Source: Bilabrum cf. latius (taxonomy: Eukaryota). Taken from it: a stretch of DNA of 64,000 nt. Location of the stretch: positions 682,001 to 746,000 of the forward strand of contig OZ237751.1 of the NCBI GenBank assembly GCA_965178125.1, given 5' to 3'. Of the stretch, positions 1 through 64,000 are shown piece by piece. A program made the translations under genes and the position numbers. Under the pieces are notes generated by a model. It was not told the DNA's origin and made no database searches. It saw nothing but the letters and a program-made list of their open reading frames with translations. Position 1 is the first letter of the stretch. The number at the start of each line of letters is the position of its first letter.

Positions 1-3000
1 CTGAAGGAGTCGAAGATGGCGTAGGACTCGTGCTGGGGCTTGGCACAGCGCCGCCCATAAACAGAACGAGGGCGCCACCGCTATTGGATTCCGCGGTGTT
101 GCTTGTCTCGGCCCCAATCATCAGATCTGTTCGCCCATCTCCATCAAGGTCACCAATCGCACTTACAGCTGCAATCCGGTCAGCGTTCCCCGTACCCAGG
201 AGGGGAAGCACTGCGGGGGTGTCACCACTAATAACCATAAAATCTCGTACCCATGTGTCCGTTGAGTTGCTTTCTAGGAGAAGAATGTACACCTGCCCAT
301 CGTTAGAGCGGTAGTTGCCATCCTGCCGTGCTCCCACGGCCAGGTCGTACTCCGAGTCGCCATCGGCGTCTCCGATTGTAGCCACGTGGCTGCCAAACTC
401 GTCAGCATGCTACATGTACGACCCTATCGGGTTCGTGGTCCCATCGAGAGACCTGCTCCACTTTGCCATCACCGCATCTACCGTGCCGTTGCCAGCCAGC
501 TGCAGCACTGCAACAGCTTCGCTGCTGGATCCGACAACAAGACGAGGCAGCGCATAACCAGGCGAAGGAGGCAAGCAATCGACAGAAATAACCACCTCTT
601 CCAAGAGCGGGTTGTATATGTCCAGCCCACCACCGGTTGCTTGGGTCAACGCAGCAGCCTCTCGGACCGTGTCGTCGGCTCGCATGTACAAGAGGATGAG
701 GGCGCCCCCTTTAGACCGTCCGGCGTCTGCCCTCCGGGCCGCTGCAGCAATATCGTTGAAGCCATCCCCGTCTAAATCGCCCAGACCACCATTGACTGCC
801 CCGCCTAGCTCATCCTCGCTCGAGTCGCCCAGCTAGAAGCTGCCGTGGAGCTGAATGCTCCTCTTGTTGAGCTCCGTCTGGTTTGCAACACTCCCGTTTC
901 GAGCAAGCCGCAGCACCCAGACCCTTCCACTCTTCGAATCGCCATCCACTTCACCGCGGGGCTCGCCTACCAGCAATCGGACAAGGCTGCCGGCCTACCC
1001 ATTCGGCTGTGTCATGGTCCCGAGAGATTCGCCAAAGTGGCTGTCTGATTTGAGCTCACTATGCACGAGCCCGCCCTCCAGGGCGCTAATTTTCTGGGCT
1101 GCTTTGCACGTTCCGTTACGGTGTAGCAACAACACCCACACAGCGCCTTGGTGAGACTTGCCATCGTTGTCAAGATACGCACCAACAGCCACGTCGGGCA
1201 CGCCATCCAGATCAACGTCACGCAGGCCTTGCACCGCCCTGCCAAACCGATCACCTTCATCCAGATGCAGCCCTGATCCGCTCGAGCCATCTGTCACGAA
1301 TTGGTGCGCTCGTACAACCGTGCCGGCAGCAGCAGGGCTAGTGGAAGGCGTAATCGAGGGAGTTGGGATGGTGGACGCTGTCGCCGATGGCGTGGGTGTT
1401 CTCGTGGGACTTACTGTGGGCGATGACGAAGCCGTGGGAGACGGGCTCGGGAAGACCGACTCCTGATCTACCGCGATGGTCAGCAGAGCAACTGCTCCAG
1501 AGGCACTACCGAATTGGCTATCGTAGTACGGGAGGCCGACAGCAACGACAGTCCCACAGTCGGGTGAGCTGTCATAGATGCGCCCAATAGCAGCCAAGGA
1601 GTGCCCAAACCACGCTTGCGATTGTATTCCCCCGCCTACAGTATCGCTAAGGGAGTCTCTGTCGTACCTCATGGCGGCAGCCATCGAACCGTTGCTGCTG
1701 TGGATCGAGAGCATGAACACCGCACCGTCGTCCACACCGCCCGTTCGGCTGAATCCAGAGGCACCCACAAGCACTTCTGGCGTATCATCGCCGTTAAGAT
1801 CACCCATGAACACCACAGAAGACCCAAACAAGTCAAAATTCTGCGCCAAATCTACCTCCATGCCGTTCAAGCCTGGGGCAATGACACTTGCATTGAGGAG
1901 CCGAACCCCGGCACCAGGGTCACTGGCATTGCCAGTGTGCCCCAGGGAGATCAGGACGACCGCCCCGCGGTTGACCCCGCCTATGGTGGATTCCTACGCT
2001 CCAACGATCAGCTGCGCATTGCATCCCTCGGAACCTAGCCCAAGGCAATCCGTTGTAACGTCGATCGCACTGCCGAGGGCACGGACGCCCTGGGGGAAGA
2101 GAAGCGCCGTTTCGTGAATCCATCGATAAGCCTTGACCGTATCGTTCGCTGCCAGCAGGCACACTAACACAGCTCCGTGACGTTCGCCTGCCCTGCCGTC
2201 AAGCTCGCTCCCAACCGCAACGTCCAAGAGCGAGTCGCCGTCTAGGTCTGGCAGCGTGGCAACGGCCGACCCGAAGCGCCCACCCGCCTACAATATTCCG
2301 GAGGGTATTCCGCCCTATCCATCAGACCAGCGGGTATGGGAGCTTACCATCCCATCATCACTGGCGTTCAGTCGAAGCACGTACATCGCGCCGTGACTTG
2401 AGCCGAGCTGTGCAACACCGAATCCAATTGCACCGGCGAGCAGGCGTGGAAGCTCAGGATTGTCGCCGGCTCGCTGTGAAAGATATCCTACAGACCATCC
2501 AAACTGCTCGAAAGTCTCCAAATCCTCAGTAAATCCGAACTAGCCGTCGCTGATCACGGCGTGAGACTTTGCGGAACCGTTTGCCATCAAATACAACAGC
2601 ATCACACCGCCCTCCCCAGTATCATCACCGGATACATTCGGTATCCCAACTGCAATATCTTTGATGCCATCGCTATTTACGTCGTCTACCTTGGCTACGT
2701 CCCAACCAGCCCGCTAGTTTTCCTGCAGCGCGCTTGCAGCCAGACCGCCGATACCGTTGCTGATCTAGAGGCCAGAAATTACTTCCAGTGTACTATTGGT
2801 ACACTACTGCGGGAGCAAAGAAAGCCAAAGGAGTTCATTTGATGCATGTTGACTGGTTCTTGCAGAAGAGCGTTGCAGAGACGTGAGAATCGATCTAGAC
2901 GGACCACTTGCCTGGTGTTCTGACTGCGTGCTGGCTCACTTCTTGACTAAGCATCCTATCATTTCGCTGTGGATACTTTGGCTCGTATGATAGCCGCCGG

Positions 3001-3131
3001 GTACTCTAGGCAGCGAGATCAGCCATCAATTCCGCCGTCGTCGATGCGAGTGCAAACAGCGCGACAACAGCAATGGAATAGATTCGACAGGACGTGCCAG
3101 TCGAATAACTAGTACAGCAGTATAATGTCAT
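1..3131 (-). CDS. FG-GAP / integrin-alpha-like beta-propeller repeat surface protein (3' end runs off the window; 5' end uncertain)
   Basis: One minus frame is open from about 2930 to position 1 if 9 TAGs are read through (2804, 2765, 2714, 2540, 2315, 1994, 995, 833, 410). It carries repeated FG-x-S/A...GD(L/V)(D/N)GDG..D(L/V)AVGA motifs (e.g. GDLNGDDTPEVLVGA, DVDLDGVPDVAVGA, GDLDGDGRTDLMIGA) and SPSPT-rich linkers. A hydrophobic leader in another frame (ATG 3131) would need an intron near 2900. Confidence 0.8.
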
Positions 3132-3320: not shown

Positions 3321-5786
3321 TCAGCCGGTCAGCGCTGGCACGAATTGCAGCCCGAGCAGCCCGGCAGCTCCCACGATGAGCCCCACGTTGAAGACCCATC
3401 GACCCCACGAGGCACCACCTCCTTCGCTCTTGCTCTCTCGCGTCGCTTTCACGAGGTCCGCCCCGAGCGGCACCAGGTATATCAACACCAAGCCTCCCAA
3501 AGCGCCAGTGATCCTCACCACGGTGCCCACGTCCATGTTCATCGCAGCCAGCGTGAAGCTGACCGCCATGATCCCGAAATTCAACGCCGCCACGTACACC
3601 CAACCCGGCCATGTAGTCTCCATCAAGTAACCAAAGAACTGCGTCCTCACGATCATAAGCAAGATAGGAAACACCGTGACCAGCTGGAAAAAGAGGCTCA
3701 GCCTTGCCGTAAACGCGTAAATGTCCAGTCCCTTGGTGAAAGTTGACCCGAACATGTCCAAAAAGTTTGACTGCAGGGCCAGATTCACGCCCTTGCCGGG
3801 GTTCAGGGCGGCAAAACCGAAGTAACCTAGCACGCCGATGAACATGTACAGTACGCTCGCAATCAGGTAGCCGTAAAAGACGTCGTAGCTCCTGGTGGCC
3901 TTGGGTGCGTTCTTGCAAATGGGCTGGATGGCGTTGTGAATGAACGTTGAAAGCATGAGCGTGCCAGCGAGCGGCACGAAAGTCTCCCTGCCCCACAGCA
4001 CGACCTGCATCTTCCCAGTGTCCACGTTAAATTCGCTGGCCCCAGACTCCAGGTGGCTCACCACCTCAAAGTCCCCGAAGCTGATACCGATGAAGCCATT
4101 CACAAGGATGAACGTCACCGTGTAGACGAGGAAGAGGAACCCTACTGAGTTGAACTTAACCAGCACGGACAGGTCCTGCAAGTTTGCGAGCGGCCACAAG
4201 ATCCACACCACTCCTGCACTGATGATTCGGCCGTAGTGGATCCACATCTCAGGCTTGTGCCCGCCGCTGGCAGCCACCGCGATCGACAGCACGATGCTGT
4301 AAAGGCTCTCCTGCATCAGAATATGGTACACAATCACGGCCCCCATGATAACGAGGATGCCCATAACCCACGACGTGATCTACATGGGGAATCCTAGGTA
4401 GTAGCGGGCTAGCCCAGAGTATTCCTGCGTCTGGCTGGCTTCCGCCTGCTCTACTACAAGAAGGGCAGTGTACGAGCTGATCGCGCCTATAACCACCGTC
4501 ATCACGACTCCAAGGAGGAGCCCAGCCTCTGCGTAGTACATGGGAATGGCCACGATGGCAGTGCCCATCATCGTGTTCACGATCGAGGTAATAGTGCTGA
4601 AGCGAGACTGCTCCTTGCCGTCCTCGCTGTACACAAAGACTGCGGTGGTCATCAAGATGAAGCGAGCAACACGACAGCGAGTCCCCTATACATAACAAGT
4701 GGTCGGTTGCGGTGGCACGGTTTACGAGACAGAGGCCAAAAAACATGACTGCGGGCAGTCCACGGCAAGCGACTGGTTCTAGTTGAGGCAAAGGCACAGG
4801 TACCTCAATCTCCTCATCTCACGAGACGGGGGCAGCACTTGCGCTGGAGGCACTAGGTACTCCATGTCCTCGGCGAATCCTCCTGGCGCTGTGCCCTGCA
4901 TGTTGCGCAGGCTCGTGTAGAATTTCATGCGATGCCTCATGGGGCTGCGGCTTGAAGATAAAGAGGGACCAAAGGGGTGGCGATCAGGGCGCTGGTGGCA
5001 ATTGGCAGTTGCATGGCAGGGCGAATGTTTGGTGGGTTTGAGTGGGGAGCAGGGGCCCGCCCACCCTGCTTCCTTGCCTCAATGCGTGCCTCACTCGTTC
5101 TTCGAAGGCCGGTATGGCTTCCTTGAGGGTGTTCTAGGCGACTGCTCCACCGCGGCTTTCTCCGCTATTTGCATGCCTGCGGTACACAGCATGGAATGAA
5201 TAGTTCAAACGAAGATGCTAGAAGGAACATGGCTGTGGATCGGGGGAGCACGCCACTGGGGCTAGTCAAGTCTCAGACACGACAGCAGCAAGCCCGATGC
5301 CACCTCACTCTTCTGGCTGATGGAAGACGAAGTCTCGTCTACCTCGCTGTACAAGCCAGTTCCAGTTCCACCACCACGGTTCACAGACAGCGGGGAAGGC
5401 GATCCAGCGGCCATGCCATTGCGAGGACTCATGCGCGAGGCCCACTACGGGCTGCCTGGTCCAGATCTGCCTCCAAGCTGTTGCATTGATACAGACAGCG
5501 GGGGCCTGGTAGATATCACAGGAGACTCTCGCCCAATTTTCGCTTTCGAAGTTACTGGTCTAAGCTTGCGGGACTTGGATCGACGCCCGCTTTCACTACG
5601 CTCTGACCTCCGAGATTCGCTCCTGCCGACTCGCGTATCAGCTGTCAGCTGAGAGGAAGTACTCGCCGCTGAGCCTACCCGTACATAGCTACTGTCAGCT
5701 TGTTCCCCCGAACCGCTGAGCAAAGGCGCTCTGAGTATATCTTCCGGTGTTGGCGGGGCACCATTTCCTCGCCCGGTGCTATCCAT
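3321..5786 (-). CDS. SLC38A9: SLC38A9-like amino acid transporter (Aa_trans/AAAP family), 4 exons
   Basis: Exons 5786-5309, 5176-5095, 4944-4823 and 4639-3321 are joined by three frame-restoring GTGAG...CCGCAG introns. Motifs: RMKFYTSL (cf. the SLC38A9 N-terminal YYSRL), YLVPPAQVLP, SIVNTMMGT, LVKFNSVG, FIHN, and about 11 hydrophobic segments. In-frame TAG at 5445 and 4380; ends TGA. Confidence 0.8.
4640..4822 (-). other. Spliceosomal intron (183 nt) in the SLC38A9-like gene
   Basis: GTGAG donor and ACCGCAG acceptor; removal joins VLPPS-L-FVYSEDG in frame. Confidence 0.7.
4945..5094 (-). other. Spliceosomal intron (150 nt) in the SLC38A9-like gene
   Basis: GTGAG donor and GCCGCAG acceptor; removes an in-frame TGA and joins SKN-D-PMRHRMKFY. 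Confidence 0.65.
5177..5308 (-). other. Spliceosomal intron (132 nt) in the SLC38A9-like gene
   Basis: GTGAG donor and ACCGCAG acceptor; removes an in-frame TGA near 5204. Confidence 0.6.
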
Positions 5787-6107
5787 GGGCAAACGCCGGA
5801 TACTGTCGCTGGTGGTACTATCAAAAATACAAACAGCGAAACGTATGAATATACTACAAGTTGGCTGGAGGGTATTAGTTAAACGCGGAAGGGAAGCCCC
5901 GCTGTGCTCAAACAGATTTTCGCTTCCGATACAGAAATACATTGTTGGGTTAAGTTACCGAACCCGCCACAGATGCACCATATCCGATTCTGTTTCGGAT
6001 TGTAACGAATAATTACGAGGGAAAAACAGATTTTGACTTCCTACTTTTGGATATTTTCCCTGGCTTACTATCATCGGCGGTCAGTTTAATCAAAGTAAAT
6101 TTAAATC

Positions 6108-7268
6108 ATGGCTGCAGTAGGAGGTGCTGCTGCAGACGAAGATGCGAGATCGGAAGCGCCGTCGTTGGCATCAACCGCTTCTGAAGGCAACGGAACTGAC
6201 GAAGAAGACGATGAAAAGGAGGAGACCGTGAAGGATTTCAGACAGGAGCTTGAGAGGGCCGGTCGTTCGTTGAAAACAGATCCTAATGCGTACTACATGC
6301 GCTGCAGCGTGCTGGAAAAGCGGTTGCCAGCCACCAGATTCACAGTTTTCCAGACGTACCGTCGCGACTTTGAGAAACGGCGCAGCAAGGCAGGAACGGA
6401 GCAGGTTCGACGAGATCTAGCCGTTAAGCATAAACATTTCTTTGAATCTCGAGGTATCGTGCATGAGGACCCGTTTGAAGCATGCAGGGCGCACAATTTC
6501 TTTGGTGTTCAAAGTGCAATTGCGGCAGGGTTTGGGGTGAACCAGAAAGACAAGGCAACCGGAAGAACATTATTGCACGAAGCTGCTGCAGGTGGGGACT
6601 TGGAGTTGGTGGAATTCTTGATCGACTGCGGTGCCACCGAGACAACTCGCACGCTGCTCGGCCGCAGCACCCCTTTGCACCTAGCGGCGGCCAGCGGCGT
6701 TTGGCAGGTAGTGGACTTACTTCTGCTCCAGGGAGTAGATGCGAACGATACCAACAGGGCCTATGAAACCGCCCTGCACTGTGCGACCAATGTGGATGTC
6801 GTCAAGGCGCTCATGCGAGCAGGTGCTCGAGCCGACCTGAAGGACCGAGCAGGCCACACCCCCGGGGCTGCAGCGCGGGCGCGGGGGCTGCGCGCGGTGG
6901 CAGATTACATGAGGGAGCACAATCTTGGGGTCGCAAAGGCCAAAATGGAGAAGGAGAGGCAGGAAAGGAAGAAGAAGATGCAGGCGGACATGAGAACCGA
7001 GCAGAAGAGGCAGGAGGCAACGCGGAGGAGGGCAGAAATCGAGAAGGAACGCACGAGGCAAAAAAGGCTAGCGGAATACGAGCGATGGCGCAATCCAGTA
7101 TCCAAGAAAGAGAGGGCGGCACAGAGGCGTGCAGGTCTCAAGGCTCTGCCAGAGCCGGATCCGCGGGACGTAATGGGGCTGGGCGTAGACTTCGGGAAGG
7201 GCGGGGCTGGGGGTGGCGGCTCCGGGGTTGGGAGCAAGCGGAAGGCGCTGCCTGCTATCAAGGGTTGA
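6108..7268 (+). CDS. Ankyrin repeat protein with C-terminal charged coiled coil (386 aa)
   Basis: GRTLLHEAA, RSTPLHLAA, ETALHCA and GHTP ankyrin repeats. ATG follows an AT-rich leader; no internal TAG; ends TGA. Confidence 0.9.
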   Translation: MAAVGGAAADEDARSEAPSLASTASEGNGTDEEDDEKEETVKDFRQELERAGRSLKTDPNAYYMRCSVLEKRLPATRFTVFQTYRRDFEKRRSKAGTEQVRRDLAVKHKHFFESRGIVHEDPFEACRAHNFFGVQSAIAAGFGVNQKDKATGRTLLHEAAAGGDLELVEFLIDCGATETTRTLLGRSTPLHLAAASGVWQVVDLLLLQGVDANDTNRAYETALHCATNVDVVKALMRAGARADLKDRAGHTPGAAARARGLRAVADYMREHNLGVAKAKMEKERQERKKKMQADMRTEQKRQEATRRRAEIEKERTRQKRLAEYERWRNPVSKKERAAQRRAGLKALPEPDPRDVMGLGVDFGKGGAGGGGSGVGSKRKALPAIKG

Positions 7269-7776
7269 ATCAATATTGCTGATTATGGGATAGAAACAAT
7301 CGAGCCTGGGTTCTATCGAGCCTGGACAGGGCGCAAGTAGTCGTGGTCTTTTACGGTGCTGAGGCTGCAGCCCCGCCACGAGCAGTGGACACGTGACGCC
7401 GTCGGCACCAGTGAATGCACCCGCCAGAGTATTGCAACCTCGCTCGTTTATTTTGTGCAGTGTTATTTCCTAGATGGCACAATTGACACCTTCGGTTCCA
7501 TTAAGGATTGTTGCGCGCAGAAATCGCCCGCCGAAATGCAGACTGCTGGAGGTGCGACCATTTGCAAGCCCCTTGACCTTCTTCGTCAGCTAAGGGTCGG
7601 AGCTCAGCTGTTTGATACTACCTGGCGTCTTATTTTGAAGTTTTAGATACTCGGAATCAAGATCGCACCCCGAGGCGCTGTTTCGGGCTTCTTAGGCAGC
7701 TCCTACGATCTAGCCGACAAGCATGTCCAGCAATGGGTGCGGCTCTAGATTCCGCGACTCAAGGTCATTCTGGAGA

Positions 7777-10700
7777 ATGATTATGCCATTCATGATGCCA
7801 ATATTTGCTGTGTCATGTTTTTTGGTTGTAAAAGCAGGTTAGCCTGTGATGCTTCGATCGAGCCGCATACTAGAGTGCGCAGTCGAGTACCAAGACGAGT
7901 TTCAGGCCACGCTACACAAGTCTAGGTTCGCAGTCGACGACGACACTATTGACCAAGCTGAAAACGATGGAATTGAGCCTGCACCTTCGCGTCGGTAGCG
8001 ACCGGACAGTTTAGTTGAGATGGGTTTCGCTGCATGCACCAGCTCTGCTGTCCAAAGACGCCCAAACAGAGGTAACTCTCACACTCCTAGGCGAGGAGCG
8101 CCTTTGAATGCAACTCTTGGGGCAATTTTGTCATCTTCTGCTGTTGATCCGGTCCCCGTTCTGCATAAATCGCCGGGCCATGGCGGGATAGTGGCTTTCT
8201 CGCCGATAGTGCGATCGATTATTGCCGAGGGCGAGGACTTGCAATCCTTCTGGCCGCTTGTGGATGTGCCTGGTGAGGCTCCAACAGGAGTGTATGCTGG
8301 CTTTGGCATGAGAAAGGGCCTCGAGGCCCGGGATGCCAGGCTGTCCGGTTCGCAGGGCACGTGCGCCGGTCCGAATCCTCCCACCAAGAGCGTCGAGAGC
8401 GCGAGCGGCACTCACTGGGGTATGCATGCTGCGCAGGTTGGTGCGAATGCATACCTTCAAGTAGACCCACCCGCTTCCTGGCTCTATGAGCCGGACAAGG
8501 GACAGTACCCGATGAACGAGACGTCGTTCGATCGAGCTCCGAAGCTCAGCTACGAGTTCTTCTTCACTCGTAGGGACAGTGGCCCGGTGCTCGACTTCAA
8601 CGTGCTGTGCGCCAACGTGAACCGCACCGATTGGCAGCCTGGCAGACAGCCCTCTCAATACGCGCAGCACGACAACGCGATCTCCCTTCGATACAGCTCT
8701 TCGAATTGCCTCGTGACGGCCATGGACCTCAACATCAGCGACGCCTACCCGGTCCCTTCGCCCAGCCCTATTTCGGCGCCGAGCGCTGATCTATAGTCGT
8801 CATATTCTCCAGTGGCAGGCACAATGAACGGGCCAGCTGCTCCGGTGATGCAGCCCAAGGACAGGCGCGGACATGGCATGTCTTCACAAGGAGGCCAAGG
8901 GTAGGTGGACAAAGTCGTGCTGGCGGAGGGCTACTCGCCCGCTCTCGCTGGTCCATCGCCCGTGCCCGGGGGACACTATCGAAACTTTCGATGCTCAACC
9001 AAGGCTTGTCCAAGCAAACTGACAGCTTAGAGGCAGCACCACATGTACTTCGGGCAGCACCCCAGCACGGAGATGCCTCAAGTATACCTGGACGGACAGC
9101 TGGGTATGGGGTGGAGCACAGACAGGTGCGCGCACTGCAGGTGCTCCGGTTACCCCATAACAGAAGCAGCAGCCAACTGCGGCAAGTGCATGCGGCCGAC
9201 CAGGATGGTACCGACTAGTATTGACCTACTCGCTAGGAATTAGTCCTTCACGATCGGGTCACCAGAGCTTGCATCTGCATTCGGAACGATCTCGCACGTC
9301 GCGATAGTGTCGAACGACAAGCGGCGTCGGCTGGCGCCACAGTTTTCTCAAGCGCTCCCTCCAATCGAAGGGGGTGTCTGGGAGTTTGTCAACACCTCCG
9401 AAACTGGCTATTTTTCGGGGCGGGTCGGTGTTGTGGCACGATGCAAGTAGAACGACCATGTGCTCATCGGGGCGCCTATCGCCAGAAACTGGATGGCTGG
9501 CTGGAGCGGGCCCGCGTGGCATGGTAGCCGTGAGCTGCAGGCAGAGCGGAACCTGGTCGCCGAAATGCGGCGCCGTGCGCGAGTAAAGGGTCAGAGCAAC
9601 CTTCCTACCCGGTACTTCTACACGCCGCAGTACCTGATGAACGGCGACAAGGAGGTCGCGAGGGACAGCAACTCGACCGAGCCTAACGGCATCGTAGGTG
9701 ACCTGGCCACGGGCGACAAGCTCGCGGACACGTACCCTGCGCCTTGGAGCAAGCCCCGGTGCGTGAGCCCCTGGGCCAAGGAGTCCCCGTACCGCCACAA
9801 CTTTCACAAGCACGGGATCAAGAAGTGGAGCCAGCGGCATGAAGAAGTGGTCCGCATGACTCTTACCATCCAAGCCAACCCCATCGAGTACCCGAGCGGT
9901 TCTGCCAATGCCTAGTCACTAGCAGACGAGATCAAAGCAGAACTCCTAGACGTATTGCTGCAAGCAGAGCCGACTCGCATCCAGGTGCTACTGGAGCAGG
10001 ATACACCACTCCAGTACGAGAAGCCTCCGGGCATGAGGGTGTTGGTCGTGATCTGGCCCTCATACCAGCAGGCGCCGCCCAGTGGCACGTATGGGCAAGA
10101 TGACGATCACGACGTGGGGCATGCCTCGAGTGCTTCGATAGATTCGGGTCATGGTGGCGGTTTGGCGCCATGGGTTGGATGGCATCGTGGGCGGTATGCT
10201 GGGCCCGGTGACTTGGGCTCGATCGATTACGCAACGGCTCTCAACAGCCCGCGCATGATGGGCTACCAGATCATGGACCTCTTTGCGTCTCCTACAGACA
10301 GCATCGCTGGTGACACGCTCAGCATGATGATGCAGTACGCCATGACAAACCACCGGCCCGATCTGGAGTTCTTGCTGCTTTGCGAGAACGGCGATTACGC
10401 CACAGTTTGTTCTGCTACTTGGCTCTTTGAGCTTCTCTTTGCAGCGCTGGGTGGACAATTTGGTCTGGTGCTTCTGGTTGTTACAGTCGCGCTGGCAATC
10501 AGCAGCTTTGCGAGCGATGACGATGACTCAGAGAAGCTTGGTGAGCTATCCATTTCAGACGTCAAGTCTTTGCAGGCAGGGCCTCAACGGCAACGGCAGG
10601 AGTCACGATCTGTGTCTGGGTCGAATCACAAGCCAAGGGGTACGCTGAATACGGCATCGAGCTCAAACCAATAGAGAACCGGCAGCACTGGCATCCCAAG

Positions 10701-33225: not shown

Positions 33226-33272
<47 letters not shown>

Positions 33273-52765: not shown

Positions 52766-53015
52766 ATCTTGCTACCAGTTCGATTAATCCCAATCTTAAG
52801 CCCTGTGACTATATAATCAATGAAAAGGCACACCAACGTTTCGTCAAAATCACTGTCGCTTCCTTTGGTCCTCCAAATTTGGCCTGAAAATGACGCAACG
52901 GCAACATTGTGAATCCATCGCTGGTTTCGATCCGGAGCAGTAATTAGGGCGCGCAAACGAGGTCGAAACTCAATAATTACAAAGCAAATCACCAGTAAGC
53001 AAGCCCAAAGATGGA

Positions 53016-54808: not shown

Positions 54809-57800
54809 TTATTTATGCCCATGTCGATGCCCACGCTGCACGAGCTGCTCAACTTGCGCCCTCCGCACCGGCTTCAAGAGAATATCCTCTGCCCCGCTCG
54901 ACCGGAACAAAGCCTGATCTTCCGGCAGAGCATTCCCAGTCACACCCACAATCCGCACCCCACGCACCCTCTCGTCCTCATCGCCCCGCACAGCCTGTGC
55001 CATCTCAGGCCCCGACATGCGCGGCATCGAGAAGTCCAGCAGCACCAGATCCACCACGGGCTTCACGTCAGCCCCACTGCCACCGCCAGCAGCACCCTTA
55101 ACCCCAGTCTCCTCGGCCTGCTGCTCTCTGGCCCTCTGCCTCAGCAGGTCCAGCCCCTCCTGCCCGTCGCTGGCCGTGAGCACCTGAATGGATCGATCCA
55201 CGGTGCGCACCATGCGGGAGAGGAAGAGCCGGTTGGTGCGGCTGTCATCCACCACGAGCACGCTCTGAACCTTCTGAGACATGCTCCTTACTTTCGTCTT
55301 CTACGTCCTTGCTTTCCTACGTGCTACTCCGCTGCCTGCTGGTCTAGGAGCATTGGTCGTGGTCGTTGCGTCCGGCTGCAAGCTTCTTTCAACCACGCCC
55401 GAAGCAGTCGACCGAGAAGAACTGGACCCGCTCGATGTTTTTCGTTTGCGAACCTGTCTCCTCTTCTTTTTGGGGACAGCCGTTTCGCTTTTGACAGGCA
55501 AGCTGCCGGCTGTCAAACTAAGCTGAACCTACGCTGTGCCACCAGTCGCTGAGCCAGACGCGAGTGAACGAAATGCGCTGTCACCGATCCCTTGAGGGCT
55601 ACATGCACTGGGACCCGTTTGGCCGGAGGTCAGGCTCGTGACAATCGATCTGTTTCCCGATTGGTGCTCCGGTGCCGGGGATGCCAGCATCCTTAGCCAC
55701 ACAAAGAACACGCTGCCCACTCCAGCACGAGACGAGAAGCCCACGCATCCACCGTGCATGCGGATCACCGTCGCCGTGATGGCCAGCCCCAGCCCAGACC
55801 CCTGCCCCTCCGCCGTGAGGATGCCCGAGTGCAGCGTCTCGAAGGGGGTGAAGACCTTGCCCCAGTCCTTGCGATGGATGCCGGGCCCCTCATCGAGCAC
55901 CCACAGGCACACCGTGACATAGGACTCTTCGATGGCCAAGCTTGCCAGGGCGCCATCCCCTGCCCCTTGCTGCTGCATAACTGCATCGCGAGCCAGCGAT
56001 TCATACATACGAAGGGTATCCGGGGCAACGTGAGCCGCACCCACAAGGTCATCGTCCTCGCAATCCATCAAGTCCTCGTCCTCCAACGGTGTCGCAGCAG
56101 CAGCAGTCCCGAGAATACCATCCTGGCTTGACTGGCCACCTGTTCCATGCATCACGGCACGAAGCGGTGGAATAGGCACTAACTTCGTGGAAGTTTCCTG
56201 CAAATCATCGACTTCTTCACCGTCAAGTTCCTTGGTGATGCCAGCTGATGTGGCCCCAGCTCCACGAGCTCCATCTTGGATAGAGGGATTCGTGTCAAGC
56301 GGTACGGCTTGTATGCGACCATGGTTGATGCCACGAGCAGCCTAGTCATGCTAAGTGTCAACTTCGTTTGGTACTACCTGGTTCACGCGTATCTTTTGGT
56401 GTGAGCTGTCGCCTGCACTGGCACACCTCGTGCCGTTCTGCAAAGCCTACGAATCCGATGGATGCTGACCTGGCTGCATTCCATTAACAACTACTCGATA
56501 TAATCTGCCTGCTAGTTCCTGTCCCAGCCCACCCACTGCCTTCTGCCATTCAGACACACCCCACAGGTGAGGTGGCACCTCGCTCGACCCAAACACGATA
56601 CGCGGACGCTGAGCTGCATCACCACGACCCCGCATCTGCAAATCGCTCAGCCGCTTCACCAGCTTCTCGTCCGGCCGAGACCACTTCAACGCATTCGATG
56701 CGTAGTTGTACAGAGCCCCCCGGATCCGCACAGGGTCGCACGTGAAGCTGCCGCCAGACGCAGGGTGCGAGTCGTACATGAGCACCTGCACGCCAACGCC
56801 CTCCGCCTGGGACGCGAAGGTGCGCTGAGCCTCTGCCAGCACGCCGGGCACGAGCGGGTTGGGTCTCTTGGTGATCTTGAGCCTGCCGGTCTCGATGTGC
56901 TGTAGGTCTAGCACGTCGTTTAGTGTGGTCTGCATGGCCTCGGCGGCAGCATCGAGGGAGGGCAGGGTCTCGTCGAAGATCTCCACGGCCTGCTCGATGT
57001 GCGAAAGAGCTGAAGTAGTCTGGCCGGTCCGATGCTCTTCTGCATCAGATGATACGTAGGAGTACGACCCCCGCCGCTTTCGCAACGGTGGATCGAGCTA
57101 CACAGAACCTGCGGAAGACTCCGATACGGCTGATCGTCGCATTTGAACCAACGCCTGTCTCACCGCGGTCGCACCTTCCTGGCAGAAGTCCAGCCCTAGC
57201 ACTACTGAGTTCAGAGGCACCCTGCACTCGTGCGACAGGAATCGCACCCTCGACTGCAGCGCGGCCCTCTGTTTCTCTGATATGTCCATGGCGCGCTCTA
57301 GCTCACGGGATTGCCGAGCGTACGTGAGCACACCAGTCAGCAGCAGGACGCGAATGCACACCGAGACGGCCCGGTAGGCTATGTCAGCAATGGCATTCAT
57401 GTGAACCTACGGGGTGGATTCTTGGTCCATCACAGCATCTAGTGATCCGTTCAAGGTGGATTCAGAGCACAGTGGCGAAGCAAATGCCTACAGTCCATCC
57501 AGCCTTGCTTGGGTGCAAGCAGCGGTGTTCGTGGCCTCCCGTGTGATCCACCCAAGCACATAGATAGCAATTAATTGCTCGACTATGATAAGCATCGCAC
57601 AAACACGAAGCTGCAGTCCGATACGAGCCGCCCTGTCGATACTAGTCTGAATTAGGGGAGACACGGACTTCCGAAGCATGCGCTACCCGCCCGTCTTTTC
57701 TGACCTGAGCGACATAATGTGCTTAGCTTCATCCTGGGCTGAAAACATAGACCTGCAATCCAAAGCTCGTCTTGATATGGCACACGCTTCGTGCAAGGCA

Positions 57801-59596
57801 ATAATAGCGGGCAAATCATCCGAGGTTTTCCGGTCAAAGCCGGTGTCTCGTACAGGAAGCTCTTTTGGAAGACTTGATATGTCCGGCCTCCAGCACGCAG
57901 GTAGCCTGCCGCAGCAGCATCCCCACAGCATGCATCTGGCACAGCATGCCTCCACATCCAGCAACTACAACGAGCGGGAACTCTGGTCTGCCCTGGACCA
58001 ACCCCTCACTTCGCTAGCAGCCTGTTGCGTGGCTTCGTCCATGCCTCTGGTAGGTGTGAGCACTACAATCAGCACGAATCCTATGTACGTGGGCGTAGCC
58101 AAGAAGCTAAACAGCATGTAAATGGAAGTTGTAAATGAAAACTCATCCATAGGTAGGCTGCTTGCCGAATCCAACTCGCCGTCAACTGCGAGGGACGTCT
58201 CGTTGCTGCTGATCTCCACTGCGCCACCGAGTGATATCACGGGTGCTGCCGCCGGGCCCCGCCTAGCAAATACTAGTGGCAGCGCATCCGCGCGTTGGTA
58301 TGAGGGGATGCTATCCAGCAGCTAGATGGCCTGCATCAGTGCATTCGTTTCGAAGTACGAAGCGGTGCGAAGGCTGAAAAAGTTGAAGTCTGCGAGTGCC
58401 AGCCGGTTGTGTAGAGGTAGCATGAGGTCATCCACGGCGCTATCATTAAATCCATACGATCCGGCTTGCTCCTTGAGCGCGCTGTATGAAGCGTTAAATA
58501 CCGTCCGAGTGTCGTAAAGGGTGCCATAACTGGCGTTGTCGTTTGCTTGCTGTGGGAGGTCATCGAGCGAGCCGACGACCTCTGCCTGTCTTAGCATTGA
58601 CAGAAACAGTACCGGCTATCCCGCACTGCCCCGGATGTCTGTAAGTATTGAGGCGGGCATGCCGGAGTAGGTGGCGTTCCCAATCTCTCGCAGCATGCCA
58701 TCAAGCTAAGCATATGCCCCAATGCCAGCGTCTGCCACAGTGACGGATGCGGCCAACCTCGACAAGCCCATCATCCCTATATTACCTATATAGAAAAATC
58801 CGCCCGTAATGCCAAATACAGCTATCGCAAGGGCACGCCTGGTCTTCAGCGTGAACTCGACAGCGGGGCGGGCAGAAGTTGTTGAGCTGATGATCATGGA
58901 AATCACGGTCGCAAGCACGATTACAACCGTCGTTGCCCATGGCTATCCCATTGCCCCACCCTTGATGATGGTTACAGCACGAATGTGACCAACTTGTGGA
59001 CCTTCACCAGACAAAACGCCTGAGAGCATCAGGATGGCAGCGTAGCACTGCTCAACGACCGTGGTGATTCCAGCGTCAACAGGACCTGGGCCGAGCATTC
59101 CCGCGCGGTCCAGCGGGACATACATAAAGTAGGATTCACATAGAATAGCAGCAGCCAAAATGCTCAGCAGGTAGGTCATCAGCGCATGTCTATCGTAGCT
59201 GCCGCCGCTGCAGTCCTTCGCTCCCGTGGTTCGGCTGCACGTCTCGCGCGTAGCAATATATGCACTCATGAGGAGCGCAGCAGCACTCAGTAGTATAATT
59301 AAGGCTGATACAGTGGCTACTGATACTTGCATGCTTCCAACTGCTTCAAGGTCAGAAAGAGTTGGACCAACGCTGCTGTGAAGCCCAACAAATCGCGGAA
59401 ACTCGAATGCAATTGAATACCCCACATTTATCCTCCAAACTGTGGAACCGCCAAGCAGTCTTGCTATTGAATCAACGAGTGTCACTCCAAATACAGTCGA
59501 TAATGCAGCACTAAATACAAGACATCCCGCCTGGCTGAACGTTGCATTGCGAACTAGAGCATCCAATGACTTGGCACGGTGATTTATTTCTCCCAT
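54809..59596 (-). CDS. Membrane-bound hybrid histidine kinase (multi-TM sensor, HisKA, split HATPase, receiver), paralog 1, about 1595 aa
   Basis: H-box RFLSHECRVPLN, N-box RIRGALYNYASNALKW, G1 VLDEGPGI, F-box KVFTPF, G2 GSGLGLAI; receiver VLVVDDS...LLDFSMP...VTGN...KPV. All fragments are in one frame separated only by TAG; ends TAA. The 5' end may extend further. Confidence 0.9.
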
Positions 59597-59820
59597 GAAC
59601 TTTCTAAAAGGAACAAATCCTTACAACGTTAACCAAGATGAGTCGAATTGGTGTAAAAAGTCTCTACACCAGCGATAAATGGACAACAGAAGTCCCTCAT
59701 CAATTCCGTTGAGGTAATTCTCTTCATCTTCAAACATCACAGGAGTGCCGCGGTCGCAAGGAACAATTCTAAGAGAACCGCTTCGCATTCGCTCAAAGAA
59801 AAATAGGTGGGCATATCTTG

Positions 59821-62800
59821 TCATGAGACACCCACAAGTACCGTCTCAATTTGCGCCCTCCGCACCGGCTTGCAGAGAATTTCCTCTGCCCCGCTCGACC
59901 GGAACAAAGCCTGATCCTCCGGCAGAGCATTCCCAGTCACACCCACGATCCGCACCCCACGCACCCTCTCGTCCTCATCGCCTCGCACAGCCTGTGCCAT
60001 CTCAGGCCCTGACATGCGCGGCATCGAGAAGTCCAGCAGCACCAGATCCACCACGGGCTTCACGCCAGCCGCACTGCCACCGCCAGCAGCACCCTTAACA
60101 CCAGTCTCCTCGGCCTGCTGCTCCCTGGCCCTCTGCCTCAGCAGGTCCAGCCCCTCCTGCCCGTCGCTGGCCGTGAGCACCTGAATGGATCGATCCACGA
60201 TGCGCACCATGCGGGAGAGGAAGAGCCGGTTGGTGCGGCTGTCGTCCACCACAAGGACGGTACGCTTCGGCTTTGTCTAAACCGCCCCAGCCTTACCGCT
60301 GCTATGTCTTACGCTTGGGCTCTGTGGCACCAGCAATCCGAATCCGGAATCTTCTCTGGATCCCATGAGCAAGTGGCTCGACCGTGTTGCGTTGCTGCCA
60401 CCGTCAGCAGCGGTAGAGCCACTGGCATCAGTAGAACGCCGCTAAATTCCCTTGCGCTTGACCATTCGACGCTTCTTACTTTGCTTCTTACTCCCAGTTG
60501 ACGAGTCAGCTTCGGCCAGGCTGCTAGAGCGGAAGCTGCTCGATTGATAAACCCCCCCAGCTTCTGCAGCTGCACCTCCACTGCTGGCCACTGCTGCCGA
60601 AGTGGCAACTTTTCTCCCGGTATTGCTATTGCCTCCATCTGACTGCAGTAGAATGCTGTTGGCAGTGATGCGACCCTCTTTGCTCGCATTCTCCAGCTAG
60701 ACACTGCCACCGCTGGGACTGTGCAACTCAACGCTGCTCGAAGGCAGCCGAGTTGGCGCAAGGGGCTGGACACCCATCCTTAGCCACACAAAGAACACGC
60801 TGCCCACTCCAGCACGAGACGAAAAGCCCACGCAGCCCCCGTGCATGCGGATCACCGTCGCAGTGATGGCCAGCCCCAGCCCGGACCCCTGCCCCTCCGC
60901 CGTGAGGATGCCCGAGTGCAGCGTCTCGAAGGGGGTGAATACCTTGCCCCAGTCCTTGCGATGGATGCCGGGCCCCTCATCGAGCACCCACAGGCAGACG
61001 GCTTGCTGCATGTGATCGGCCTGGCCCTAGCTACTCAAACTAGCCCCTGTTCCGCCTCTGGCAGATACCAAATTCCCTTCGCCACTAGCGGCTTGGTACG
61101 TCCCACTAGTGATCCGGGGATCACCAGCACCGGCGTTATCTGCAGACCCCTAATGAGGCGTTGCCATCCGAGAGATGGACGATCGAGCAGGCAGACTTGG
61201 TGCTTCACTCGAGCTCTCAAGCGTACTGCTGCGCTTCCGCGCTCTTTGTCGAAGCTGAGGGCGGGCCAAGATGGCATCGTACCTGTCCACAGTATCTGGT
61301 GCAATCTGTGCGAGACTGTCAGTAAACGGCTGCGAGTCATGGCTTGGCAAGTATCGTGTCGATGCACGGGCTGATGCAACCCCAGCATTGCGCTTCCTCG
61401 CTGATTCTGACGCTGCTTCCTCTGAAATAGCGCTTTGTGACTCGCTCCCTCGCTTCGGCAAGTCCGGAATCTTGGCATTCCGCACCGCCCTTGCCGCCTC
61501 CAAGTCCTCCCCGTCAAACATCCCGCTGGATAGGCTAGAGTGGTTAGACATTGACCTGAAGCTGTGCCTAGAGCTATAGGCTCCGTCAAGCTCGCCACTA
61601 CTGATCGGACTCAGGCCAACTGGGACCACAGAAGAGCTTCCATCCTGCCCTTCTTGTGACTTGCTGTCGGCAGCGACACTACGCGACATGGCTGTTTCAG
61701 ACCCACTTGTAGATGCACTACCTTCCGTCGTCTACGTTACAATGGTATGCAGCTTACCTGCTAGCACCTCCCCCAGCCCGCCCACTGCCTTCTGCCACTC
61801 ACTCACACCCCACAGGTGAGGTGGCACCTCGCTCGACCCAAACACGATCCGCGGACGCTGAGCTGCATCACCACGACCCCGCACCTGCAGATCGCTCAGC
61901 CGCTTCACCAGCTTCTCGTCCGGCCGAGACCACTTCAACGCATTCGATGCGTAGTTGTACAGAGCCCCCCGGATACGCACAGGGTCGCACGTGAAGCTGC
62001 CGCCAGACGCAGGATGCGAGTCGTACATGAGCACCTGCACGCCAACGCCCTCCGCCTGGGACGCGAAGGTGCGCTGGGCCTCTGCCAGCACGCCGGGCAC
62101 GAGCGGGTTGGGTCTCTTGGTGATCTTGAGCCTGCCGGTCTCGATGTGCTGTAGGTCTAGCACATCGTTGAGGGTGGTCTGCATGGCCTCGGCGGCAGCA
62201 TCGAGCGAGGGCAGGGTCTCGTCGAAGATCTCCACGGCCTCTCTCAACAGCTGAGTAGGTCCATCAGCAAGACCCAGGACAAACGCCGCGCCCATTTTGT
62301 CATCCGTAACATCGCCAACAACTTGAACGTTGTCCGACCCTCGGCGTCGAGAACCGCGTCGTCGAATTGGATCTGTGGTGGATTGACGTCCAACTTGTCT
62401 AGCGGCTATCTCTTTTTGCTGCAGTGCTGCTTCCAGTGCAAGCCTCACCGTCTTGGCTCCCTCCTGGCAGAAGTCTAGCCCTAGCACTACTGAGTTCAGA
62501 GGCACCCTGCACTCGTGCGACAGGAACCGAACCCTCGACTGCAACGCAGCCCTCTGTTTCTCCGAGATGTCCATGGCGCGCTCCAGGTCATGCGATTGCC
62601 TTGCGTACACATACACGCATCCAAGCAGCAGAGTTCTGAGAGCAAACATTATGAAACGAAGTGTAATGTCGACCGCAACGCTGGTGCGAGTGTACTCGGC
62701 AGCCTTCACTCGAAGAAGTTGATCCACCGGTGCAGCCATCGTTGCTTCGGTGCAAGATTCTGACAGGGAGTCAACACCGGCAATCCTGGCCTGTGCGCAA

Positions 62801-64000
62801 GCGCACAGCTCTGTCATGCGGAAGAGCGTCGCAGACATGATGGGAGTGAACAGCAGCTGCTCTGCCAGAATGAGCACGCATAAAGTCTTCAGCACCGAGC
62901 CCAGCTGCGCAGATCTGTCCATACCGGCCTGTACGAGCGGGGATACTGACATTCGAATACCCTTTTGCACCCCGTCTTGCTTGCGCATCGACAGCAAATG
63001 CCTGGCCTCCATAGTTCCTGAACCCTCGCCACAGCAAGCGAGGGATCGCCGAGCAGTCACACATATCTCATGAAAGCTCTGGATGCCTTTCCATTCGAAA
63101 CGGCTCAGCGCAGCCCTCGATTCCGACAGAGTACTTTGAGTTGGAGGTGAAGGCATAGAAATGCGGACAGCTGGCCGACACCACTTCGGTAACCTGCCAC
63201 AGCAGCAGCACAAGCACCATCGCGCCAGGCGGGCCTCAACATCAAGAAGCTGACAAGGCCTATCGGCTCGCTTGTCGTTGTACCAGCGGTATACCTCCAT
63301 AGAAGCGTCCTGCGTCGCTTCATCCATGCCTCGGCTAGGTGTTGCCAACAGGACCAGGACACATACGACAGACACGGGGAACATGACGAACACACACACG
63401 CAGAATAGAGCCCAAAGAATCGTGAAAGCGCTCACGATGCTGAGGTCAAGAGCGCTAGGCACACTTTGGGATGCGATAGTGGCGTTAATGCCGCATAGCG
63501 TTAACTAGCCGTCATTATGAACCCCAATAGGCAACGCATTCGCTCGATTCTGGGGTGACATGGGACGCAGGACTTCAAGGAGGCTAAATACTAGCTGCGT
63601 CTCATCCAGCGAGGCAGTGCGCCCGCACAGGTGATTCTGATCCGCAAGAGCGACGCGATTCCAGAGAGGATTCAGATCAATAGACTGGCCATCGCCACCG
63701 TCGCCGCTACTATCACCACTGCCTCCGGAGCCGTCGCCTTGGACCATGCAGGCAGCACCGCCGTATCCAGAAGACATGGTCCACAGCTTGTTTGCGTGAT
63801 CAAACCACTGATCTACCTGGTACGCCGACCCATTGAAGTCGGCATTCTGTTCTTGCATATCGTCAATAGCACCAGTGAGCTCTGCCTGTCGTAGCAGCGA
63901 CAGGAACAGCACCGGCCTCCCGTTGCTGCCTCTGATGTCTGTGAGCATAGAGGCGGGTTTACCGGAGTACGTCGCGTTATCCAGACCATCAAACATAGAC
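59821..64000 (-). CDS. Membrane-bound hybrid histidine kinase, paralog 2 (5' end off window)
   Basis: Same H, N, G1, F, G2 and receiver motifs as paralog 1; one frame with TAG-only interruptions; ends TGA 59821-59823. Confidence 0.9.

What the first reader, a model, noticed from the sequence alone, without database searches (positions are those of the whole stretch)
1..64000. Non-standard nuclear genetic code: UAG is a sense codon while UAA and UGA remain stops
Seen: well over 100 in-frame TAGs interrupt about 15 genes on both strands. After removing a few canonical introns no internal TAA or TGA remains, and the 15 gene ends are TGA (12) or TAA (3). One 11.6-kb frame (34663-46260) has about 40 TAG and no TAA/TGA, and tandem TAGTAG occurs mid-gene (16389, 20509). 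Established: eukaryotic UAR reassignments usually move UAA and UAG together (many ciliates, hexamitid diplomonads, dasycladalean algae). Uncoupled cases are rare, e.g. UAG=Gln in the fornicate Iotanema spirale, UAG=Leu in an uncultured rhizarian, and some ciliates. Inference: this GC-rich genome does not resemble typical AT-rich ciliates, so it may be an independent, possibly undescribed reassignment needing a tRNA with a CUA anticodon and an eRF1 that ignores UAG.
Basis: partly seen in the sequence, partly recalled or inferred. Interest (0 to 1): 0.97.

Follow-up and report, generated by a model that had tools for sequence, protein, structure and literature searches.

The report
UAG read as glutamine, nuclear genome
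This stretch of a GC-rich eukaryotic chromosome uses the stop codon TAG as an ordinary sense codon, most likely for glutamine, while TGA and TAA still end genes; this genetic-code variant is rare but already known.

Summary
With TAG read as sense, 16 long frames cover 59,040 of 64,000 bases. They hold 167 in-frame TAG and no internal TAA or TGA. All 15 complete gene ends are TGA (12) or TAA (3). The genes are eukaryotic and nuclear: NUP210, NOPCHAP1, COQ7 and a spliceosomal-type intron. Contigs from a second study carry the same TAGs with no differing letters, covering 44 of the 74 TAGs in the laid part.

Short ORFs from relatives at 73-90% identity stop exactly at the window's TAG at 4 distinct sites. 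At 2 further sites they stop where the window has CAG or CAA. This suggests a small clade shares the code and points to glutamine.

Glutamine also scores best in Pfam tests: Q 399.8 bits, E 396.8, K 396.7, S 394.7, R 391.8, L 377.4. One TAG lies in a COQ7 column that is Q in 112 of 120 homologues.

The cognate tRNA, eRF1 and the organism's identity could not be tested because no genome was held. The code is the known table 15 type. The lineage is probably not one of the published ones.

The parts
2..2935 (-). FG-GAP repeat protein. The frame runs off the window. 10 in-frame TAG.
   Evidence: Pfam FG-GAP E 1.4e-34; TAG count.
3321..4721 (-). Amino-acid transporter (Aa_trans). 2 in-frame TAG, ends TGA.
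   Evidence: Pfam Aa_trans E 9.5e-18.
6105..7268 (+). Ankyrin-repeat protein. No TAG, ends TGA.
   Evidence: Pfam Ank_2 E 4.3e-18.
7639..12828 (+). 1729-aa membrane protein of no known family. 15 in-frame TAG, ends TAA.
   Evidence: 0 Pfam families.
13022..14128 (-). NOPCHAP1-like gene. 6 in-frame TAG, 3 of them inside the Pfam match. A 99-nt GTGAGT...CAG intron lies at 13816-13914. Ends TGA.
   Evidence: Pfam NOPCHAP1 E 1.1e-7. The intron was read by eye from the sequence and is not confirmed by RNA.
14170..16065 (+). Hydrolase-like protein with an (Ala-Gly)n tract. 2 TAG, ends TGA.
   Evidence: Weak Abhydrolase_2 match, E 0.004, below the Pfam cut-off. (GCAGGT)x21.8 repeat at 15349-15479.
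16134..17624 (+). Coiled-coil protein. 8 TAG, including in-frame TAGTAG at 16389-16394. Ends TGA.
17845..21270 (+). 1141-aa protein of no known family. 13 TAG, including in-frame TAGTAG at 20509-20514. Ends TGA.
22067..31984 (+). NUP210-like nuclear pore protein, 3305 aa, GC about 0.66. 11 TAG, ends TGA.
   Evidence: Pfam Ig_NUP210_2nd E 2.2e-11.
32288..33355 (+). SAM-dependent methyltransferase with a weak UbiE/COQ5 match. 2 TAG, ends TGA.
   Evidence: Pfam Methyltransf_11 E 8.8e-13 and Ubie_methyltran E 4.7e-5.
33356..34354 (+). COQ7 (demethoxyubiquinone hydroxylase). 7 TAG. The TAG at 34085-34087 lies in a column that is Gln in 112 of 120 homologues. Ends TGA at the same C-terminus as its homologues.
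   Evidence: Pfam COQ7 E 3.5e-34.
34585..46260 (+). 3891-aa protein of no known family. 42 TAG, ends TGA. The TAGs at 40657, 41641 and 42520 are where relatives' ORFs stop. The CAG at 41617 is where another relative's ORF stops.
46289..52783 (-). 2164-aa low-complexity protein. 25 TAG, ends TGA only 28 bp from the stop of the convergent neighbour.
   Evidence: A second-study contig covers 46267-51631 with 0 differences.
53016..54299 (-). Mannonate-dehydratase-like (UxuA) gene. 3 TAG, ends TAA. The closest relative has Q, E and Q at the three TAG sites.
   Evidence: Pfam UxuA E 4.4e-34.
54809..59620 (-). Hybrid histidine kinase 1. 14 TAG, ends TAA. The TAG at 58943-58945 is where an 88%-identical relative's ORF stops.
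   Evidence: Pfam Response_reg and HATPase_c.
59821..63999 (-). Hybrid histidine kinase 2, a tandem paralogue. Its 5' end runs off the window. 7 TAG, ends TGA.
   Evidence: paralogue alignment.

Best explanation
The window is nuclear DNA of a compact, GC-rich, intron-poor eukaryote whose translation system reads UAG as an amino acid, most likely glutamine. UGA (the main stop) and UAA still terminate. This is the code of NCBI table 15.

Shown: UAG is in frame throughout real genes, and only TGA or TAA end them. The TAGs are in the DNA of two independent data sets. Public data hold relatives whose ORFs break at the same codons.

Inferred: the amino acid is Gln. A tRNA-Gln with anticodon CUA, one base away from the CUG anticodon of tRNA-Gln (textbook knowledge, not tested here), decodes it. 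eRF1 no longer recognises UAG efficiently. TAG codons arise from CAG by synonymous C-to-T change and now sit near mutational equilibrium.
For: (1) Sense use. 167 in-frame TAG lie in 16 frames covering 92% of the window. Frames reach 3891 aa, against 601 aa at most under table 11. All 15 of 15 complete ends are TGA or TAA.

(2) Real genes. Pfam matches include NUP210, NOPCHAP1, COQ7, UxuA, FG-GAP, Aa_trans, histidine kinase with receiver, and a methyltransferase.

(3) Not an error. Runs of two studies hold the stretch. No differing letter was found over 33300-53200. Listed pieces of the second study cover 44 of the 74 TAGs there with 0 differences.

(4) Relatives. Six ORF fragments at 73-90% identity were found. 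Five of them (P0252, P0249, P0251, P0257, P0259) end exactly one residue before a window TAG, at 4 distinct sites. The sixth (P0255) ends where the window has CAG and the other relative has Q. The 70%-identical UxuA relative P0254 ends where the window has CAA.

(5) Glutamine by alignment. COQ7 TAG position 136 sits in a column with Q 112 and H 8 of 120. P0254 has Q, E, Q at the three UxuA TAG sites. P0250 has Q at 'LPALWxLCK'. Ten TAG sites in well-aligned context score Q 21.5, R 19.1, K 10.8, E 10.3, L -19.1 by BLOSUM62.

(6) Glutamine by Pfam bit scores. Summed over NOPCHAP1, COQ7, UxuA and FG-GAP with TAG read as each residue: Q 399.8, E 396.8, K 396.7, S 394.7, A 392.5, R 391.8, Y 384.1, W 381.7, L 377.4. 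H was tested in 3 families: 279.5 against Q 281.9.

(7) Codon usage. TAG/(TAG+CAG) is 0.245, close to the analogous synonymous pairs TTG/(TTG+CTG) at 0.30 and TTA/(TTA+CTA) at 0.26. The TAG ratio co-varies with the T-first Leu fraction over 40 chunks (Spearman 0.37, p 0.02).
Against: Gln leads only narrowly. In Pfam bits it is 2.4-3.1 ahead of H, E and K. For NOPCHAP1 alone, S (37.0) and A (36.4) beat Q (35.4).

Deep alignments give Q 5.4 against R 5.0 over 5 sites. In close homologues Q and R are each seen at a mean of 35% per TAG site.

TAG sites are much less conserved than ordinary Gln codons: 35% of homologues have Q at TAG sites, against 78% at CAG/CAA sites. At other TAG sites the nearest COQ7 relative P0001 has G, D, L, L and D.

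The relatives' DNA was never seen, so it is an inference that their ORFs end at TAG and not at TAA or TGA.

No tRNA(CUA), eRF1, RNA or peptide evidence is available. With only 15 gene ends, occasional use of TAG as a terminator cannot be excluded. TAG is scarce in the last tenth of the frames (7 of 167). By absolute distance from the stop, however, the depletion is not significant (p 0.07-0.38).
Confidence: 0.83

Rival explanations
1. UAG is a sense codon but stands for another polar residue (Glu, Lys, His, Ser or Arg), not Gln.
For: The margins are small: E and K are 3 bits, H 2.4 bits and S 5 bits behind Q. R nearly ties with Q in the BLOSUM scoring. UAG=Glu and UAG=Ser exist in other eukaryotes (PMC11687900, passages read).
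Against: One TAG lies in a COQ7 column that is Q in 112 of 120 homologues. Relatives' ORF stops fall on window CAG and CAA, 2 of the 2 stops that do not fall on a window TAG. Arg is 8 bits behind Q in Pfam and none of its codons is one base change from UAG. Q ranks first in every combined score, though for NOPCHAP1 alone S and A score higher.
Confidence: 0.09
2. [quoted passage not shown]
For: Only 15 gene ends could be examined. The last tenth of the frames holds 7 of 167 TAG against about 17 expected, while CAG/CAA are not depleted there.
Against: None of the 15 ends is TAG. TAG occurs 16 and 20 codons before two real stops. Depletion by absolute distance is not significant for the last 25 to 200 codons (p 0.07-0.38). 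The COQ7 C-terminus matches its homologues and ends in TGA.
Confidence: 0.05
3. The code is standard and the TAGs reflect something else: sequencing or assembly error, pseudogenes, U-to-C RNA editing, or programmed readthrough.
For: No RNA or protein data could be examined.
Against: Only one of the three stop codons interrupts the frames, 167 times, in 15 of 16 genes, with no frameshifts. Contigs from a second study are identical. The positions are kept in relatives. TAG usage matches that of a synonymous codon. Editing at 167 sites in 64 kb would be unprecedented for a nuclear genome (my own knowledge, not a search).
Confidence: 0.02

Closest known systems
Iotanema spirale (fornicate): UAG=Gln, with UAA and UGA as stops (PMC5304391, passages read)
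   Same: The same code: UAG alone is reassigned to glutamine, in a non-ciliate eukaryote.
   Different: This window encodes COQ7, an enzyme of ubiquinone synthesis, which I would not expect in an anaerobic fornicate (my own knowledge, not tested). GC is 0.55-0.66 and TGA is the main stop. The Iotanema eRF1 change described in that paper could not be checked here.
Ciliates with UAG=Gln only: Hartmannula sinica, Trochilia petrani, Protocruzia tuzeti (PMC11687900, passages read)
   Same: The same table 15 code. TAG is spread along gene bodies like a Gln codon.
   Different: In the first two of these ciliates, 93.5-100% of aligned C-termini end in UAA (same paper). Here 12 of 15 ends are TGA. The window is GC-rich, with genes up to 11.7 kb, and it lies in an assembled contig of at least 21 kb.
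Uncultured rhizarian exLh: UAG=Leu (PMC5304391, passages read)
   Same: UAG is uncoupled from UAA in a nuclear genome, and UAA and UGA are kept as stops.
   Different: Leu is rejected here: 22 Pfam bits below Gln and BLOSUM score -19. exLh ends its genes mostly in UAA (56 of 71).
Green alga Scotinosphaera: UAG=Ser with UAA a stop (mentioned in PMC11687900; original paper not read)
   Same: A UAG-only reassignment outside the ciliates.
   Different: Ser is 5 Pfam bits below Gln overall. Ser is seen at a mean of 3% of homologues per TAG site, against 35% for Gln.
UAR=Gln codes (table 6): many ciliates, ulvophyte algae, Hexamita, Streblomastix, Amoeboaphelidium (listed in PMC11687900)
   Same: UAG is read as Gln.
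   Different: TAA is not sense here. There is no in-frame TAA in 19,680 codons, three genes end in TAA, and the coding signal is lost after each of those three ends.

Membership tests
NCBI table 15-type nuclear code (UAG=Gln; UAA and UGA stop) | In-frame UAG inside conserved protein-coding genes | tested here: met
   167 in-frame TAG in 16 frames, 15 of which hold at least one. These include COQ7 (7), UxuA (3), NOPCHAP1 (6) and FG-GAP (10).
NCBI table 15-type nuclear code (UAG=Gln; UAA and UGA stop) | UAG positions correspond to glutamine in homologues | tested here: met
   Q ranks first in all three combined scores, but narrowly. One TAG sits in a column with Q in 112 of 120 homologues. Relatives' ORF stops fall on window CAG and CAA.
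NCBI table 15-type nuclear code (UAG=Gln; UAA and UGA stop) | UAA and UGA remain terminators and are absent inside genes | tested here: met
   12 TGA and 3 TAA ends. Frames of up to 3891 codons hold neither codon, while the other two frames of the same DNA hold 70 and 113. Coding signal is lost after 14 of 15 ends.
NCBI table 15-type nuclear code (UAG=Gln; UAA and UGA stop) | UAG is never used as a terminator | tested here: inconclusive
   0 of 15 ends are TAG, but a TAG end would be read through by my frame definition. Only COQ7 has a C-terminus fixed by homology. There is no significant depletion of TAG near the stops.
NCBI table 15-type nuclear code (UAG=Gln; UAA and UGA stop) | A tRNA-Gln with anticodon CUA | not testable with these tools
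   The window has no tRNA gene and no Rfam match. No whole genome is held.
NCBI table 15-type nuclear code (UAG=Gln; UAA and UGA stop) | eRF1 with altered stop-codon recognition motifs | not testable with these tools
   eRF1 is not in the window and no genome is held.
Table 6-type code (UAA and UAG both Gln) | In-frame UAA in genes, with UGA the only stop | tested here: not met
   There is no internal TAA, and 3 genes end in TAA.
UAG=Leu code (rhizarian exLh; some organelles) | UAG at conserved leucine positions | tested here: not met
   L totals 377.4 bits against Q 399.8. BLOSUM score is -19.1. L is seen at a mean of 2% of homologues per TAG site.

The most novel reading that the evidence does not exclude
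The window comes from an undescribed, GC-rich, aerobic, non-ciliate eukaryotic lineage that uncoupled UAG from UAA on its own. At least three sequence-distinct members appear in public data: the window's organism, relatives at 73-90% identity, and a more distant one at 36-44%. In this lineage UAG=Gln is old enough to sit at mutational equilibrium (about a quarter of C/T-AG glutamine codons), and TGA, not UAA, is the main terminator. This would be a further independent origin of the rare UAG-only reassignment, in a compositional setting opposite to the AT-rich genomes where stop-codon capture is usually discussed.
Probability: 0.5. Interest if true: 0.8.

Novelty: new member of a known kind. 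Interest (0 to 1): 0.7.

Why it matters
UAA and UAG almost always change meaning together. Only a handful of nuclear genomes are known to split them (PMC5304391 and PMC11687900, passages read). Each new independent case tests how eRF1 can lose UAG recognition while keeping UAA, and whether a single tRNA-Gln(CUA) is enough.

A GC-rich genome that terminates mostly on TGA would be a useful contrast to the two phyllopharyngean ciliate cases, which terminate on UAA.

There is also a practical cost. Standard gene callers shred this organism's genes: every relative found in the public protein collections for two of the long proteins searched was a fragment of 42-352 aa. Its proteome, and that of its relatives in metagenomes, is therefore largely mis-annotated unless table 15 is used.

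Tried and rejected
Whole genome: none is held. Codetta-style inference on the assembly and searches for tRNA, eRF1 and 18S were therefore impossible.

tRNA and RNA genes in the window: ARAGORN found 0 and Rfam at gathering threshold found 0.

RNA evidence: no RNA holder was listed. Two runs of the second study are only guessed to be RNA, and the tool marks one of them as probably DNA. I draw nothing about transcripts from them.

Metagenome scan with the COQ7 alignment: 80 loci, the best at 49% identity and mostly bacterial-looking. No close relative appeared, so the loci were not used further.

Taxonomy. Cluster look-ups gave names for only two UxuA homologues, Stygamoeba regulata (50% identity) and Didymoeca costata (44%). 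These are too distant and too scattered to place the organism. An Atlas search with the relative's UxuA returned only bacterial clusters. The organism stays unplaced.

Uninformative analyses. Residues next to TAG and neighbour-profile correlations told nothing, nor did TAG density against amino-acid content per chunk. The comparison of the two kinase paralogues was weak: TAG stood opposite CAG, CAA, AGG, GAC, GAA, TAC and others. Anchoring the FG-GAP repeats by hand showed only that TAG columns are polar.

The correlation of TAG/(TAG+CAG) with CAA/(CAA+CAG) (rho 0.50) shares a denominator, so I do not count it.

Literature. Five full-text searches found no description of a GC-rich non-ciliate lineage with UAG=Gln other than Iotanema. 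Supplementary tables of PMC5304391 and PMC11687900 may list further taxa that I could not see.

Rejected on the evidence: the plus/minus ambiguity at 32245-33540 (the plus-strand methyltransferase is the gene), pyrrolysine (my judgement from the eukaryotic genes, TAG at 0.85% of codons, and the Gln column), and TAA as a sense codon.
Full report
WHAT IS IN THE SEQUENCE

The window has GC 0.55-0.66. Read by the standard stop set, no frame exceeds 601 aa. With TAG read as sense, frames of 3891, 3305, 2164, 1729, 1603 and 1392 aa open up on both strands.

I take 16 frames as genes. Together they hold 19,680 codons, which is 59,040 of 64,000 bases, and 167 in-frame TAG (0.85% of codons). Of these, 160 lie after the first in-frame ATG. 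Fifteen of the 16 frames hold at least one TAG; the ankyrin gene has none.

The absence of internal TAA or TGA follows from how the frames are defined, but their lengths cannot be chance. In the 3891-codon frame the other two frames hold 70 and 113 TAA+TGA.

All 15 complete gene ends are TGA (12) or TAA (3). The frame from 34663 holds 42 TAG, and both TAGTAG sites are in frame.

The codon-usage signal stays in frame for 40 codons after 145 of the 165 TAGs that have that much sequence downstream. It falls to 0.3 or below after 14 of 15 TGA/TAA ends. The score was trained on these same frames, so this is a consistency check only.

WHAT KIND OF DNA THIS IS

Pfam finds NUP210 (nuclear pore), NOPCHAP1, COQ7, an amino-acid transporter, ankyrin repeats, FG-GAP repeats, a UxuA-like dehydratase, a methyltransferase, and two tandem hybrid histidine kinases with receiver domains. 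Four long proteins match no family.

The NOPCHAP1 gene holds a 99-nt GTGAGT...CAG stretch that reads as a spliceosomal intron. I read it by eye; it is not confirmed by RNA.

Genes are tightly packed. Two convergent genes have stops 28 bp apart, and a divergent pair has ATGs 54 bp apart. This is nuclear DNA of a compact eukaryotic genome. It is not an organelle, a phage or a prokaryote.

ARE THE TAGs REAL?

Six public runs from two studies hold the stretch. Laid on 33300-53200, none shows a differing letter. The only difference is a one-base gap in a single contig of depth 3.

Listed pieces of the second study cover 44 of the 74 TAG codons of the three genes in that stretch, with 0 differences. 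Sequencing or assembly error is therefore excluded. No run is on record as RNA, so RNA editing is not formally excluded.

RELATIVES SHARE THE CODE

A full HMMER search with residues 1601-2800 of the 3891-aa protein found only five proteins among 1.84 billion representatives. All are short ORFs of 42-302 aa. A word-index search with kinase 1 found three more, of 158-352 aa. Cluster look-up added further members.

Six fragments are 73-90% identical to the window. Five of them (P0252, P0249, P0251, P0257, P0259) end exactly one residue before a window TAG, at four distinct sites: 40657, 41641, 42520 and 58945. TAG makes up about 1-2% of codons, so four exact coincidences are far beyond chance.

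The simplest reading is that gene callers using a standard code cut the relatives' genes at conserved TAG codons. I did not see the relatives' DNA, so this step is an inference.

WHICH AMINO ACID?

The same fragments also bear on the amino acid. The 70%-identical UxuA relative P0254 ends where the window has CAA.

So the two relatives' stops that do not fall on a window TAG both fall on a glutamine codon.

Direct alignments agree:
- The COQ7 TAG at 34085 lies in a column with Q 112 and H 8 of 120 homologues.
- P0254 has Q, E and Q at the three UxuA TAG sites.
- P0250 has Q in the conserved block 'LPALWxLCK'.

Scoring 10 TAG sites in well-aligned context gives Q 21.5, R 19.1, K 10.8, E 10.3 and L -19.1. 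The same procedure applied to 10 sites of ordinary codons recovered the right residue in 98.5-100% of 200 samples per residue.

As a Codetta-like test I translated four genes with TAG read as each of several residues and compared Pfam bit scores. Summed over NOPCHAP1, COQ7, UxuA and FG-GAP, the totals are Q 399.8, E 396.8, K 396.7, S 394.7, A 392.5, R 391.8, Y 384.1, W 381.7 and L 377.4. H, tested in three families, scores 279.5 against Q 281.9.

Codon usage also fits a synonymous partner of CAG. TAG/(TAG+CAG) is 0.245, beside TTG/(TTG+CTG) at 0.30 and TTA/(TTA+CTA) at 0.26. The TAG ratio tracks the T-first leucine fraction across 40 chunks (rho 0.37, p 0.02).

WHAT SPEAKS AGAINST, OR IS WEAK

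The lead of Gln over Glu, Lys and His is only 2.4-3.1 bits. For NOPCHAP1 alone, Ser and Ala score higher. Deep alignments leave Q and R almost tied: 5.4 against 5.0 over 5 sites.

TAG sites are far less conserved than CAG/CAA sites. Homologues have Q at 35% of TAG sites, against 78% identity at ordinary Gln codons. This could mean TAG is tolerated mainly at unconstrained positions, or it could be small-number noise.

Arg is unlikely for two further reasons: no Arg codon is a single change from UAG, and it trails by 8 bits. Leu, Tyr and Trp are clearly rejected.

A dual sense/stop role cannot be excluded from 15 gene ends. The last tenth of the frames holds 7 of 167 TAG, but depletion by distance from the stop is not significant (p 0.07-0.38). 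TAG also occurs 16 and 20 codons before two real stops.

MECHANISM

Shown: UAG is translated, and UGA and UAA terminate.

Inferred from what is established for other UAG=Gln lineages (PMC5304391 and PMC11687900, passages read): a tRNA-Gln with anticodon CUA, and an eRF1 that has lost efficient UAG recognition.

Neither can be tested here. The window has no tRNA gene and no Rfam match, no genome is held, and the notes of earlier readers were closed.

COMPARISON WITH KNOWN CASES

The code is that of NCBI table 15. UAG-only reassignment to Gln is published for the fornicate Iotanema spirale and for the ciliates Protocruzia tuzeti, Hartmannula sinica and Trochilia petrani. UAG=Leu is known from a rhizarian and from ciliates, and UAG=Ser from Scotinosphaera (PMC5304391 and PMC11687900, passages read with the find mode; supplements closed).

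This window differs from all of these in several ways. It is GC-rich. It ends 12 of 15 genes in TGA, where two of those ciliates and the rhizarian end mostly in UAA. It encodes an aerobic ubiquinone-synthesis enzyme.

The nearest named homologues are an amoebozoan at 50% identity and a choanoflagellate at 44%, for one patchily distributed gene. The organism is therefore unplaced.

Five literature searches found no matching description. The library is incomplete, and the runs date from 2025, so a description may exist or be in preparation.

VERDICT

Glutamine is the probable meaning, at about 0.85 given that UAG is sense.

This is a new member of a known kind, not a new kind of code. Interest is high for people who study genetic-code evolution, and for anyone annotating this organism or its environmental relatives. 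It is well below the 0.97 first assigned.

Noticed in passing
window 46258-46291: The stop codons of the convergent genes 34585-46260 (+) and 46289-52783 (-) are only 28 bp apart, so their 3' untranslated regions must overlap or be very short. The divergent pair 13022-14128 (-) and 14170-16065 (+) has first ATGs 54 bp apart (14125 and 14179).
   Followed up: no
window 13816-13914 (-): A 99-nt stretch in the NOPCHAP1 gene has GTGAGT at its start and CAG at its end. It looks AT-richer by eye than its flanks and reads as a canonical intron. Its length is a multiple of three and it holds no TAA or TGA, so the frame stays open through it.
   Followed up: partly
window 33354-33485: A 63-bp unit repeated 2.1 times begins right at the TGA of the methyltransferase gene, in the same frame as both that gene and COQ7 downstream. 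It is the one place where the codon score stays positive after a stop (15.6). This is probably an effect of repeat composition, but readthrough was not excluded.
   Followed up: no
window 32288-34354: A methyltransferase with a weak UbiE/COQ5 match sits directly upstream of COQ7 on the same strand. This may be a pairing of two ubiquinone-synthesis genes in a eukaryote.
   Followed up: no
window 54809-63999 (-): Two tandem hybrid histidine kinases share long, nearly identical blocks from HisKA to HATPase_c and in the receiver domain, yet have diverged N-terminal and linker regions. This suggests recent duplication or gene conversion.
   Followed up: partly
TAG sites in COQ7, UxuA, kinase 1 and the 3891-aa gene: TAG codons sit at much less conserved positions than CAG/CAA codons: homologues have Q at 35% of TAG sites, against 78% identity at ordinary Gln codons. 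The three Pfam-matched catalytic domains of kinase 1 (HisKA, HATPase_c, receiver) hold no TAG. TAG may be avoided at constrained sites.
   Followed up: partly
window 22067-31984: The NUP210-like gene is the most GC-rich part of the window (0.66) and has the lowest TAG density among the TAG-bearing frames (11 in 3306 codons, against 42 in 3892 for the neighbouring giant gene). It also has the lowest TTG/(TTG+CTG) ratio. This fits TAG usage following local base composition.
   Followed up: partly
window 53016-54299 (-): The UxuA-like mannonate dehydratase has a conserved N-terminal extension (M-x-Q-x-x-Y-E...GFY) that it shares with homologues from an amoebozoan and with unnamed sequences. This looks like a patchy eukaryotic subfamily of a mainly bacterial enzyme.
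   Followed up: no
window 15349-15479: (GCAGGT) repeated 21.8 times encodes a long (Ala-Gly)n tract inside the hydrolase-like gene. Similar dipeptide tracts (Ser-Arg, Ser-Gly, Gly-Arg) occur in several other genes.
   Followed up: no
window 39876: One contig of the second study (depth about 3) lacks one base here, inside the 3891-aa gene. At this depth it is probably an assembly error.
   Followed up: no
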